64,000 nucleotides of DNA from the human T2T-CHM13v2.0 reference genome, Homo sapiens, in NCBI RefSeq assembly GCF_009914755.1, contig NC_060939.1; one strand, 5' to 3'. Under the pieces are notes generated by a model. That model searched no databases and was not told where the DNA came from. It saw only the letters and a list, made by a program, of their open reading frames with translations. Of the stretch, positions 11,556 to 13,553 are shown in pieces. The translations under genes were made by a program, and so were the position numbers. Positions within the stretch are counted from its first letter, which is position 1, and every line of letters starts with the position of its first letter.

Positions 11556-13422
11556 CTGGAGGTGACTGGTGCTGGGGCTCAGCTGTGGTCTTCCCTGGCC
11601 CCAAGCTCTTTTCCAAAGTTTCCCCAGGCACCAACCGAGGTTGGCCTGCTCTGAGGAAGGCCGGGCTGGCTCCTTTGGTCTCCGTGACCTTTGCAGAGGA
11701 TGGTGGCTCCAAGGTGTCAGCAGAGACGCACCCAGAGAAGACACGGCTCTTTCTACAAGGAGAGTCATTAAGAGCAGCTTCCCTCTCACCAGGCAATGCA
11801 GGGAGCCGGAGGATCCTGTGATGCTGCTGAGGGCTGGGGAGCCTTGGAGACAGAGGCGAGGGAACAGGTGACGTCTGTTTGTGTGTGCTGGACTGCGAGG
11901 CTGAATTATTAAACACCTTGCCAAGAGCTGCCGGTGCTGGTGGGGATGGCTTCTTCTTATCACCTCTGGGTTGTGAGGAGTCAGGACCTACTTTGTGGGG
12001 CAGATCCAGAAACAAGGACTTGTGGCCACCAAGGGGCAACCCGGCTCTCCTCTTGTTTCTCGTTTCTGGGCGAGTGTGAGGGACACTCGTGTGGACAGGG
12101 AAGCCCAGTCTTTTCCCCTCAGGGGCTTCATCTAACTTCTCACTCTCTATCACCTTCAGGGGGACCTTGTTCACGGCCCCCTCGGCACTGGCCGACACAC
12201 TAGAAATGGAGGCTGTTTCCCCGGCTGGCGACTGCGATGACCTATCCCCTTGCCGCTCCTTGCCCTGCCGCCTGGAGCCATGAGCCCCAGCCTCAGCTCC
12301 CGGGAGGGTGAGCAAGTCGGCTTTGGGTACAAACTCAGCGTGGGCTGCTGGGCGAATGGCAATCGTCTCCTTACCCTTAGAATGCGTTTTAACTACTCTT
12401 TGTACCTGGGAGGACAGGTCCTGAACTTTGGCCACCACTTTGGAGACAGGTTTCTGCTTGCAAGTCCGCTTAGCCGGCTTCTCCATCTCATCCTTTTCTG
12501 CCTCTGGATGCTTCTCAGGGTCCTGGTGACTTTCAGACAAACCTGTTTGCTGATGCTCCAGCCCACTCGGCGGCCTCCGAATGCCATCCCCTCCTGCCTC
12601 TGTGGAGCTGCAGTCAGCGGGCAGCACTTCTCTTCCAAGCCCAGTGTCCTTGAAAGCCGTCTCAAAGCTCCCAAAGCCAAGGTCTGTGTCTGGCGTCTTG
12701 GGAATATCTGGGGGGCAGCTCTCTCTCCTCTGCAGGGAGCAGGCAAGTGCCCCATTCGGGAGCAGATTTCCTTTCTCCTCTAGTACCCAAAGGTTAGGCC
12801 TTGTTCTAGAAAGAGGAAGGGAGTGGCTGGAACAGATCTTGTCCTTGCCCATCAGAGGAGCTGATTCTCGGCCTCCACGCCCTTTTCTTTTGGTCCTCTT
12901 CTGTGGAAGGGCCCCAAAGCTCTCTCTCCTTCCACTAGACCTCCGAGGCTTTTTGTTCCCGTGGGTGCTCCTCTTATTGAGAGGGCCCACGGGGAGCTCT
13001 CCCTGCCAGTCACCAGCACTCTGGAAACAGTCATCCTCGGGGGCCAGGCTCACGGACAGCTCTTGCAGCTTCCCCTCCTGGTTCCCCATCGTGATCCCCA
13101 GGATGTGGTCTGAGCTCAGGAGATTGGTTAGCAGTCTCTCCCTCTCTGTTGTGAGTTTGTACAGCTCAGTTAGAATGTCTTTCGTGGGAGTCTGCTTGAA
13201 AAATATGTCGCCTGGATGTTCGTCCGGCTCCTGGCTGAGGCTGATGATGTCTGACTCCTCCCTGACTTGGTAGCAGTTATGAAAACCTTTATTGGATCTG
13301 TCTAGAGTTACAGTGCCCTTGTATGAAAATCCTCTGACTTCCCCCTTTGGAAGACAGAAGCTGATGTAGCAGAGTTCCGTAATGGGCTTATGCAATTGGA
13401 GGGTACAATGAGTGCCTTCCAT
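11556..13422 (-). CDS. FMN1: Formin-1, coding part of first coding exon (codons 1-622 plus 1 nt; N-terminal region upstream of FH1/FH2)
   Basis: 623-aa [25 protein letters not shown]...PQHQSPPG recognised as the human formin-1 N-terminus. Strong Kozak (ATAATGG). Ends at phase-1 donor CCAG|GTTAGT at 11556/11555. Downstream main-isoform exons lie outside the window. Confidence 0.96.
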
Positions 13423-13553
13423 TATGCCTACCTAATTATTCATGCCTTGGAGATGCCGGTTTGTGGTCAGGCTTCCCAGGCTCCAGTGGTGAGGCATGTG
13501 ATGGTGGCTATGCAGAGAAAGCAGCTGACAGTCATCTCCAGCAATGAGACTGC
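13423..13553 (-). other. FMN1: 5'UTR part (131 nt) of the FMN1 first coding exon; whole exon 11556-13553, 1998 nt
   Basis: Minus-strand acceptor TTCCCCTGTTCCTCTAACAG|GCAGTC at 13554/13553 with polypyrimidine tract. Confidence 0.85.

What the first reader, a model, noticed from the sequence alone, without database searches (positions are those of the whole stretch)
13087..13443. Candidate uORF/reinitiation switch between FMN1 Met1 and Met112 (C/EBP-like architecture)
Seen: a 3-aa uORF (ATG AAT AAT TAG, 13443-13432, G at -3) ends 9 nt before Met1 (13422). By manual scan, the 330 nt between Met1 and Met112 (ATG at 13089) contain no ATG in any frame; about 5 are expected under uniform base composition. 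Met112 has a strong Kozak context (ATCACG-ATG-G). Established: in CEBPA/CEBPB, a short uORF ending just before the main AUG makes reinitiating ribosomes skip it and start downstream, in an eIF2/mTOR-sensitive way. Inference: FMN1 may use the same logic to make an isoform lacking residues 1-111.
Basis: partly seen in the sequence, partly recalled or inferred. Interest (0 to 1): 0.82.

Follow-up and report, generated by a model that had tools for sequence, protein, structure and literature searches.

The report
FMN1 leader uORFs and buried start
The short upstream reading frame and the ATG-free stretch in FMN1 are real but statistically unremarkable, whereas the downstream methionine matches the start codon and lipid-anchor signal of the sister gene FMN2, so a hidden membrane-anchored FMN1 form is a testable possibility.

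Summary
All coordinates check out: uATG 13443, MNN-TAG ending at 13432, a 9-nt spacer, Met1 at 13422, no ATG for 330 nt, and Met112 at 13089 in strong context.

The picture is incomplete, though. In the select transcript the 3-codon uORF is the innermost of four in-frame uAUGs, giving 112, 62, 21 and 3 codons. All four share one TAG, and a fifth uORF is out of frame.

The ATG desert is not significant. The exon holds 11 ATGs in 1867 nt and has a larger 363-nt gap. P is 0.14 at the exon's own ATG density and 0.78 with the protein held fixed. Reptiles carry Met15 inside the interval in 28 of 29 rows.

New here: Met112-GNQEGKL matches the FMN2 initiator MGNQDGKL, with 23 of 24 bases identical. 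The only other genome hit is an intergenic chr12 one ending in Phe. FMN2's motif is an experimentally shown N-myristoylation site (PMC7359353).

Met112 and the motif are kept in 50/52 mammal and 29/29 reptile rows. They decay together in neognath birds.

The C/EBP-like regulated switch is weakly supported. A minor, scanning-fed and probably myristoylatable Met112 proteoform is plausible but untested.

The parts
52542..52544 (-). uAUG 1 of the select transcript. It opens a 112-codon uORF in frame with Met1 (weak context: C at -3, A at +4). The same ATG is the annotated CDS start of XM_054377823.1, which skips the big exon.
52393..52394 (-). uAUG 2. A and T are the last two bases of this exon, and G is the first base of exon 38681-38745 (at 38745). 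It opens a 62-codon uORF in frame with Met1 (G at -3, C at +4).
13467..13535 (-). uORF from uAUG 3 (13535). It has 22 codons, is in a different frame, and ends 23 nt before uAUG 13443 and 44 nt before Met1. It reads over uAUG 13497.
13495..13497 (-). uAUG 4. It opens a 21-codon uORF in frame with Met1 (weak context: C at -3, C at +4).
13432..13443 (-). Innermost uORF, ATG AAT AAT TAG (MNN*). The TAG at 13434-13432 is the shared stop of four nested in-frame uORFs. Its ATG sits at codon -7, the same place as the in-frame Met of the bird N-terminal extension.
13423..13431 (-). 9-nt spacer (three in-frame codons reading V G I) between the shared TAG and Met1.
13420..13422 (-). Annotated start Met1 (A at -3, G at +4). 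Met at this column in 108 of 109 aligned rows.
13090..13419 (-). 330-nt interval without ATG in any frame. It encodes residues 2-111, a segment conserved in amniotes with no known family.
13066..13089 (-). Met112 and the motif MGNQEGKL (A at -3, G at +4). It is the counterpart of the FMN2 initiator Met and its N-myristoylation motif MGNQDGKL, with 23 of 24 bases identical.
13263..13263 (-). 5' end of Gnomon model XM_054377827.1, inside the exon and between Met1 and Met112. In an RNA starting here, Met112 would be the first AUG.

Best explanation
**Shown**
- The FMN1 isoform-I leader carries many uAUGs. Four of them are in frame and share one TAG three codons before Met1. A fifth opens a separate 22-codon uORF.
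- Met112-GNQEGKL is the counterpart of the FMN2 initiator Met and its N-myristoylation motif.

**Inferred from comparison**
- The 3-codon uORF is most simply a remnant of a short in-frame N-terminal extension that is still open in birds and closed by a stop in the human sequence.
- Met112 is an old FMN-family start codon that became internal when a conserved 111-residue segment was placed in front of it.

**Inferred mechanism**
- Met1 (strong context) is the main start.
- Ribosomes that leak past Met1 meet no AUG for 333 nt. So do ribosomes that resume scanning after terminating at the TAG 9 nt upstream, too close to re-acquire initiator tRNA in time. Both sets then start at Met112, which is also in strong context.
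- This would give a minor proteoform lacking residues 1-111, whose exposed Gly113 is a likely N-myristoyltransferase substrate.
- I regard this as constitutive spill-over, not a tuned C/EBP-type switch.
For: **Leader and contexts**
- Leader anatomy and Kozak contexts.
- The 9-nt spacer lies in the range where CEBPA reinitiating ribosomes bypass the long start (7 nt in the wild type; 14 or 17 nt raises the long form): PMC11109482.

**Match to FMN2**
- Human FMN2 exon 1 encodes CT-MGNQDGKLK at the first in-frame ATG downstream of the annotated gene start.
- The best BLASTP segment between the FMN1 exon and FMN2 exon 1 is this motif: 8/11 identities, E = 0.035.
- From the ATG, 23 of 24 bases are identical. 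All 6 shared non-Met residues use the same codon, with joint P about 0.005 from the two exons' codon usage.
- A degenerate pattern for MGNQ[DE]GK[L/F] hits 3 places in the whole human genome: the FMN2 start, FMN1 Met112, and one intergenic chr12 site encoding ...GKF. The reversed-pattern control hits 0.
- FMN2-GFP myristoylation was shown by YnMyr labelling, a G2A mutant and an NMT inhibitor (PMC7359353, passages).

**Conservation (155 orthologue rows plus human)**
- Met112 is present in 50/52 mammal rows, 29/29 non-avian reptile rows, 3/5 palaeognath rows and 4/70 neognath rows.
- G113, N114, G117 and K118 are each 29/29 in reptiles and 50-52/52 in mammals.
- In neognaths N114 becomes H in 57/70 rows and G117 becomes E or R in 31/70. 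The motif therefore decays where the Met is lost.

**Bird extension**
- The bird extension MTNL[AV][SG]I-M lines up with the human reading M N N * V G I-M.
Against: - No data show initiation at Met112 or at any uAUG. Text searches found none, and supplementary tables were closed.
- Met1 has a strong context, so leakage should be small.
- Reinitiation after the 62- and 112-codon uORFs is expected to be poor (general knowledge).
- Reptiles keep the Met112 motif perfectly, yet 28/29 rows have an intervening Met15. Its context, inferred from the flanking residues, is strong (Ile codon before, Glu codon after). Scanning-fed use of Met112 therefore cannot explain the motif's conservation there.
- The surrounding block ILGI-x-MGNQEGKL is conserved as a whole, so the Met may be kept for protein reasons.
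- One mammal (Ictidomys, 2 rows) has Thr at 112.
- Published statements say FMN1 has no N-terminal Gly and is cytosolic. Those constructs carried GFP at the N-terminus.
- No outgroup beyond amniotes was seen, so which state is ancestral (extension gained in FMN1 or lost in FMN2) is not settled.
Confidence: 0.45

Rival explanations
1. The 3-codon uORF acts as a C/EBP-type switch. Ribosomes that translate it bypass Met1 and reinitiate at Met112, and the ratio of long to short FMN1 is tuned by eIF2 and mTOR activity.
For: - A short uORF stops 9 nt before Met1, and the next AUG is in frame and strong.
- The CEBPA spacer is 7 nt and is sensitive to lengthening.
- Met112 is conserved in mammals and reptiles.
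Against: - The uAUG is the fifth of five, preceded by two adequate-context and two weak-context uAUGs, and nested in longer ORFs.
- It is in frame, and in birds the same position is part of an open N-terminal extension.
- The AUG-free interval is not significant (P = 0.14 and 0.78). It is not conserved: Met15 in 28/29 reptile rows, and Met15, Met26 or Met63 in 7/52 mammal rows.
- CEBPA itself has an in-frame AUG at codon 14, so an AUG desert is not a defining feature.
- The leader shows no special RNA structure (z = +0.46).
Confidence: 0.1
2. Met112 is never used as a start to any meaningful extent. The motif is a relic or an internal protein element. The uAUGs only dampen translation of the long isoform, as in many human leaders. 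The ATG-free stretch is a by-product of the amino-acid sequence.
For: - P(0 ATG) = 0.78 with the protein fixed, and the exon is ATG-poor throughout.
- Met1 has a strong context.
- The whole block around Met112 is conserved.
- The literature treats FMN1 as non-myristoylated and cytosolic.
- No report of a short proteoform was found.
Against: - The Met and the myristoylation-type positions decay jointly in neognath birds, while the flanking Q and K stay.
- Codon-level identity with the FMN2 start region extends to the synonymous sites.
- Met191 in the same exon is not conserved among the mammal rows shown, whereas Met112 is.
Confidence: 0.33
3. A Met112-initiated protein is made from a separate transcript that starts inside the exon, not by scanning past Met1.
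For: - Gnomon model XM_054377827.1 has its 5' end at window 13263. From there Met112 is the first AUG.
- This would explain why reptiles keep the motif despite the intervening Met15.
- Fly Capu toggles a myristoylation site through an alternative first coding exon shared by isoforms D/E/F/J (bioRxiv 10.1101/2024.07.22.604638, passages).
Against: - No promoter or other functional element is annotated in or near the exon.
- The model may simply be a 5'-truncated RNA.
- In that model the annotated CDS does not use Met112, because an exon is skipped downstream.
Confidence: 0.12

Closest known systems
CEBPA / CEBPB uORF-controlled isoform choice
   Same: A short uORF ends a few nt before the long-isoform AUG (7 nt in CEBPA, 4 nt in CEBPB, 9 nt here). 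A downstream in-frame AUG would give an N-terminally truncated protein.
   Different: - CEBPA has a single conserved six-codon uORF. Here the uAUG is the fifth of five and is nested in 21-, 62- and 112-codon in-frame ORFs.
- The uORF is not conserved as a uORF in birds.
- No functional data exist for FMN1.
FMN2 N-terminus (MGNQDGKL), an N-myristoylated formin
   Same: 7 of 8 residues and 23 of 24 bases are identical to FMN1 Met112-Leu119. Both have A at -3 and G at +4. FMN1 and FMN2 are the two FMN-subfamily formins.
   Different: - In FMN2 the Met is the annotated start, and myristoylation was shown experimentally (PMC7359353).
- In FMN1 the Met is residue 112 of the annotated protein, and no lipidation has been tested.
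Drosophila Cappuccino isoforms A versus D/E/F/J
   Same: One FMN-family gene makes forms with and without an N-terminal myristoylation site, and these localise and function differently (bioRxiv 10.1101/2024.07.22.604638).
   Different: The fly uses an alternative first coding exon. In FMN1 the choice would be between two AUGs in one exon.
Leaky-scanning N-terminal truncations such as CDC20
   Same: A downstream in-frame Met is used when ribosomes pass the first start (review PMC13082882, passages).
   Different: CDC20 has experimental support. FMN1 has none. FMN1's Met1 context is strong, so leakage alone should be small.

Membership tests
C/EBP-type uORF/reinitiation isoform switch | The short uORF stops fewer than about 10 nt upstream of the long-isoform AUG. 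| tested here: met
   The TAG ends at 13432 and Met1 is at 13422, a 9-nt spacer. CEBPA has 7 nt and CEBPB 4 nt.
C/EBP-type uORF/reinitiation isoform switch | The uORF is the single upstream AUG that partitions scanning ribosomes. | tested here: not met
   There are five uAUGs in NM_001277313.2, four to seven in the other annotated leaders, and three within the exon itself. The 3-codon ORF is nested in 21-, 62- and 112-codon ORFs.
C/EBP-type uORF/reinitiation isoform switch | uORF length and spacer are conserved among homologues. | tested here: inconclusive
   No orthologous DNA was reachable. Protein models show an open 7-residue extension from the same -7 Met in 24/70 neognath and 3/5 palaeognath rows. 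All 52 mammal rows start at MEGTH.
C/EBP-type uORF/reinitiation isoform switch | A downstream in-frame AUG in good context with no efficient AUG before it. | tested here: met
   Met in human. In frame 0 it holds in 45/52 mammal rows but not in reptiles (Met15 in 28/29) or birds (1-4 Mets). Out-of-frame ATGs in other species could not be tested.
C/EBP-type uORF/reinitiation isoform switch | Both isoforms are made, dependent on the uAUG and sensitive to eIF2 or mTOR. | not testable with these tools
   No relevant paper in text searches. Supplements closed.
N-myristoylated FMN-type N-terminus | Sequence matches a validated NMT substrate N-terminus (Met-Gly, small residue at position 6, Lys at 7). 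| tested here: met
   MGNQEGKL against FMN2's MGNQDGKL. FMN2 myristoylation was shown in PMC7359353. The general NMT consensus is recalled, not tested.
N-myristoylated FMN-type N-terminus | The Gly is exposed co-translationally, meaning translation starts at this Met. | not testable with these tools
   Needs initiation profiling or a C-terminally tagged native-leader construct.
N-myristoylated FMN-type N-terminus | Myristate is incorporated. | not testable with these tools
   Needs YnMyr labelling with and without an NMT inhibitor, plus a Gly113 mutant.

The most novel reading that the evidence does not exclude
FMN1 encodes a cryptic FMN2-like proteoform. It would start at Met112, lack the conserved 111-residue N-terminal segment, and carry an N-myristoyl anchor. 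The start would have been kept since the amniote ancestor and lost in neognath birds.

In placental mammals, loss of Met15 cleared the path for scanning ribosomes, and the uORFs that end 9 nt before Met1 would feed this start. One mRNA would then yield a cytosolic, microtubule-associated FMN1 and a membrane-bound FMN1.

This would overturn the current view that membrane anchoring distinguishes FMN2 from FMN1.
Probability: 0.2. Interest if true: 0.7.

Novelty: new member of a known kind. Interest (0 to 1): 0.45.

Why it matters
FMN1 and FMN2 build actin networks together with Spire proteins. Current work attributes their different behaviour partly to FMN2 being myristoylated and membrane-bound while FMN1 is cytosolic.

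One paper states that the N-terminal regions of FMN1/2 contain no conserved sequence motifs (PMC7359353). The shared MGNQ[DE]GKL block contradicts that statement.

The block also suggests a simple experiment that published N-terminally GFP-tagged constructs could not have shown. If the short form exists, it would change how FMN1 localisation and the exon-2 microtubule-binding region are interpreted.

If it does not exist, the locus is an example of a start codon fossilised inside a protein, together with an ordinary uAUG-rich leader.

Tried and rejected
**Led nowhere or was set aside**
- A whole-genome protein search with FMN1 residues 90-211 did not find FMN2. The shared motif is too short for that search, so I read FMN2 exon 1 directly and used a degenerate DNA pattern.
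- Residues 1-111 have no Pfam family, no human paralogue (one chance hit at E = 0.9), no usable Atlas hit and no PDB sequence relative.
- The leader RNA fold is unremarkable (z = +0.46; 132 of 200 shuffles fold at least as well).
- No functional element is annotated at the exon.
- I looked for amphibian or fish FMN1 to polarise the N-terminal extension. One search listed only the best 120 of 243 hits, all amniotes, so the extension's age is unknown.
- Motif-only hits would fall below HMMER's filters, and amniote FMN1 would fill the list.
The uORF, the spacing and out-of-frame ATGs could therefore not be compared across species.
- The one paper holding both FMN1 and uORF (PMC4776370) uses the two words in unrelated places.
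- TAG readthrough giving an N-terminally extended FMN1 was considered. I did not pursue it because nothing in the sequence context points to it.
- P0036, a chimeric hamster model with an unrelated N-terminus, was dropped before the counts. Rows in those counts are database clusters and isoforms, not independent species. For example, several rows are rat and two are Ictidomys.

**Papers and how much of each I saw**
- Passages only (find mode): PMC7359353, bioRxiv 10.1101/2024.07.22.604638, PMC2423616, PMC3139584, PMC11109482, PMC13082882, PMC4776370.
- Listing and abstract only: PMC8037211, PMC5986274.
- Known only from reference lists: Zhou 2006, Calkhoven 2000, Lian 2016.
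Full report
**1. The observation**

Read on the minus strand, the window shows ATG AAT AAT TAG at 13443-13432. Nine bases follow (13431-13423), then the annotated FMN1 start at 13422, and the next ATG is at 13089. A script listing every ATG in the spliced leaders and the first 340 nt of coding sequence found none between 13419 and 13090 in any frame.
- uATG: G at -3, A at +4.
- Met1: A at -3, G at +4.
- Met112: A at -3, G at +4.

**2.

The exon starts at 13553 and is preceded by three 5' exons in the select transcript NM_001277313.2. 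The spliced leader is 485 nt and holds five uAUGs.
- Four are in the same frame as Met1 and run to the same TAG:
  - 52544 gives 112 codons. It is also the annotated CDS start of XM_054377823.1, which skips this exon.
  - 52394 is split by the splice junction and gives 62 codons.
  - 13497 gives 21 codons.
  - 13443 gives 3 codons.
- A fifth, at 13535, opens a 22-codon ORF in another frame. It reads over 13497 and ends at 13467.
- The two other annotated leader types hold four and seven uAUGs. The three uAUGs in the exon itself are present in every version.

The "3-aa uORF" is therefore the innermost start of a nested set, and it is reached only by ribosomes that passed or reinitiated after the earlier AUGs.

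**3. Is the ATG-free interval more than chance?**

| Null model | Result |
|---|---|
| Base composition | 4.5 ATGs expected |
| Dinucleotide content | 3.07 ATGs expected |
| 5000 dinucleotide shuffles | P(0) = 0.018 |
| Codon-order shuffles | P(0) = 0.067 |
| Protein fixed, synonymous codons permuted | P(0) = 0.78 |
| Codons resampled from the exon's usage | P(0) = 0.65 |
| Exon's own ATG density | P(gap >= 333 after Met1) = 0.14 |

- The dinucleotide-shuffle null ignores that this is coding sequence.
- The exon's coding part has 11 ATGs in 1867 nt against 17.9 expected from dinucleotides. Its largest gap, 363 nt, lies elsewhere.
- The desert follows from a Met-free, low-risk amino-acid sequence. 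There is no sign of selection against ATG at synonymous sites.

**4. Conservation**

Two word-index searches returned 156 named FMN1 proteins.
- 108 hits among 194 candidates, with 735 unnamed candidates left out.
- 243 hits among 401 candidates, with 516 left out. Only the best 120 were listed, and 48 of them were new.
- All listed hits are amniotes.

After dropping one chimeric model, I aligned the first 280 residues of 155 rows plus human.

| Group (rows) | Met112 present | In-frame Mets between Met1 and Met112 |
|---|---|---|
| Mammals (52) | 50; both exceptions are Ictidomys (Thr) | 0 in 45 rows; Met15 in two New World monkeys, Met63 in three marsupial rows, Met26 in two bat rows |
| Non-avian reptiles (29) | 29 | Met15 in 28 rows |
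| Palaeognath birds (5) | 3 | 0-2 |
| Neognath birds (70) | 4 | 1-4 |

- The residues after Met112 (G113, N114, G117, K118) are each 29/29 in reptiles and 50-52 of 52 in mammals.
- In neognaths, N114 is His in 57/70 rows and G117 is Glu or Arg in 31/70.
- The AUG-free interval is therefore a placental feature, not an old one.
- Met15 in reptiles is flanked by an Ile codon before and a Glu codon after. That implies A at -3 and G at +4 (my inference).

**5. The uAUG has a counterpart in birds**

- Twenty-four of 70 neognath rows and 3 of 5 palaeognath rows begin seven residues upstream of MEGTH, with MTNLASI or close variants.
- The human leader in the same frame reads M N N stop V G I before MEGTH. 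That is 5 of 8 positions identical to the tinamou MTNLAGI-M, with the stop where birds have Leu.
- The simplest reading is that an in-frame upstream Met is old and that the human TAG closes what is an open extension in birds.
- Whether the TAG is shared by other mammals cannot be told without their DNA. All 52 mammal rows start at MEGTH.

**6. Met112 matches the FMN2 start**

- I fetched the 5' end of human FMN2. Its first in-frame ATG downstream of the annotated gene start encodes MGNQDGKLKRS, preceded by Cys-Thr. FMN1 has Ile-Thr-MGNQEGKLQEL.
- In a BLASTP comparison of the FMN1 exon with FMN2 exon 1, this is the best segment: 8/11 identities, E = 0.035.
- At DNA level 23 of the 24 bases from the ATG are identical. 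The -3 A, the +4 G and the preceding CAC are shared.
- All six shared non-Met residues use the same codon. The joint probability is about 0.005 from the codon usage of the two exons.
- A degenerate pattern for the motif finds three places in the whole reference. They are the FMN2 start, FMN1 Met112, and an intergenic chr12 site ending in Phe. The control pattern finds none.
- From the residue frequencies of the two exons, the chance of the motif occurring in a 1419-residue protein is about 5e-8.

**7. What the motif does in FMN2**

- Alzahofi et al. (PMC7359353, passages) showed that FMN2-GFP is N-myristoylated, using YnMyr labelling. A G2A mutant or an NMT inhibitor moves it to the cytoplasm.
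- They state that FMN1, unlike FMN2, is not so modified. They also state that the FMN1/2 N-terminal regions "contain no conserved sequence motifs".
- Bailey et al. (bioRxiv 10.1101/2024.07.22.604638) say an N-terminal glycine is present only in FMN2.
- They also show that fly Capu isoforms D/E/F/J carry a myristoylation site in an alternative first coding exon, with effects on localisation and fertility.
- The other curated FMN1 coding start, NM_001103184.4 (isoform 2), reads MENVDNS, and Met1 is followed by Glu. Neither start I read exposes Gly.
- The FMN1 constructs in these papers and in PMC3139584 carry GFP at the N-terminus. They would not reveal a Met112-initiated form.
- No paper in the searchable text holds the FMN1 peptide string, nor FMN1 together with "alternative translation initiation". 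The seven papers listed for FMN1 with "myristoyl" include the two above. In the passages I read from those two, the FMN1 motif is not mentioned. The other listed papers were seen as listings only.

**8. How it most likely works**

*Shown:* the anatomy, the paralogy and the conservation pattern.

*Inferred:*
- Met1 is the main start.
- The multi-uAUG leader lowers its output.
- Ribosomes that leak past Met1, or that terminate at the TAG nine bases upstream and resume scanning, meet Met112 as the next AUG and start there.
- The product would lack residues 1-111 and expose Gly113 in a near-copy of a proven NMT substrate.
- Residues 1-111 are a conserved amniote segment with no Pfam, PDB, Atlas or human paralogue match.
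- The exon as a whole encodes the microtubule-association region of mouse isoform I (PMC2423616 and PMC3139584, citing Zhou 2006). Where in the exon that activity lies I could not read.

*My estimates:*
- Some initiation at Met112: a bit under even odds.
- A tuned eIF2/mTOR-sensitive switch: about one in ten.

**9. Against my reading**

- There are no initiation data.
- Met1 has a strong context.
- Reinitiation after the long uORFs should be poor.
- Reptiles keep the motif perfectly despite an intervening Met15. Scanning-fed use cannot be what preserves it there.
- An internal transcript start would fit the reptile pattern better. XM_054377827.1 begins at 13263, but no promoter element is annotated there.
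- The motif may also have an internal role in the full-length protein.

**10. Comparison with C/EBP**

- CEBPA has one conserved six-codon uORF in suboptimal context, ending 7 nt before the long start. CEBPB has a 36-nt uORF ending 4 nt before. Extending the CEBPA spacer to 14 or 17 nt raises the long isoform (PMC11109482).
- FMN1 shares the short spacer and the downstream in-frame AUG.
- It fails the single-uORF feature. It shows no conserved uORF outside what I could not test, and it has no functional evidence.
- CEBPA itself has an in-frame AUG at codon 14, so an AUG desert is not part of the definition.
- FMN1 works at most loosely like C/EBP and should not be filed as a member.

**11. Verdict**

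- The most useful result of this second look is the match between FMN1 Met112 and the myristoylated FMN2 N-terminus. I did not find it in the searchable literature, and it is cheap to test.
- Limits: no orthologous DNA, no structure prediction (tool off), supplements closed, and only amniote proteins seen.

Noticed in passing
window 13066-13089 (-) and L005 728-751 (+): FMN1 and FMN2 are identical at 23 of 24 bases from the ATG, including every synonymous site of the six shared non-Met residues (P about 0.005 from codon usage). That is unexpected for old paralogues. It could reflect constraint on the nucleotides around a start codon, gene conversion or chance.
   Followed up: partly
window 13423-13443 (-): The human leader reads M N N stop V G I before Met1. 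Many bird FMN1 models begin MTNLASI before the same Met, and one turtle model begins MSI. The uATG looks like an old in-frame start closed by a stop in human.
   Followed up: partly
window 52491-52512: An (ATG)7 tandem repeat on the plus strand is (CAT)7 on the FMN1 strand. It gives the His run of the 112-codon uORF (MTFTITVFFFFHHHHHHH...). The same low-complexity ORF is annotated as coding sequence in XM_054377823.1.
   Followed up: partly
window 53062-53198 (-): Part of the first FMN1 exon resembles an Alu fragment. This is from recall and was not tested, and no masked repeat of 100 bases or more is listed there. If so, this leader exon is primate-specific.
   Followed up: no
window 53198-53403: The FMN1 transcription start (53198, minus) and lncRNA LOC105370759 (53403, plus) are divergent and about 200 bases apart. 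Two annotated silencer elements (53177-53516 and 53291-53500) lie across this promoter region.
   Followed up: no
window 13263 (-): Gnomon model XM_054377827.1 starts inside the exon, between Met1 and Met112. Its annotated CDS starts at 11768 in another frame because a downstream 176-nt exon is skipped.
   Followed up: partly
L009 (G000 chr12:92213910-92213932, +): This intergenic site encodes MGNQDGKF, with GTAAGT overlapping the Gly-Lys codons. No gene is annotated within about 20 kb. It is probably a chance match.
   Followed up: partly
window 13090-13422 (-): Residues 1-111 are strongly conserved in amniotes, with 22 invariant columns over the first 200 residues in 45 sequences, all within residues 1-90. 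They have no Pfam, PDB, Atlas or human paralogue match, so this is an uncharacterised conserved segment.
   Followed up: partly
P0013, P0014 (Ictidomys tridecemlineatus): This is the only mammal among the rows with Thr instead of Met at position 112, while GNQEGKL is kept. It is a natural test case if the short form matters.
   Followed up: no
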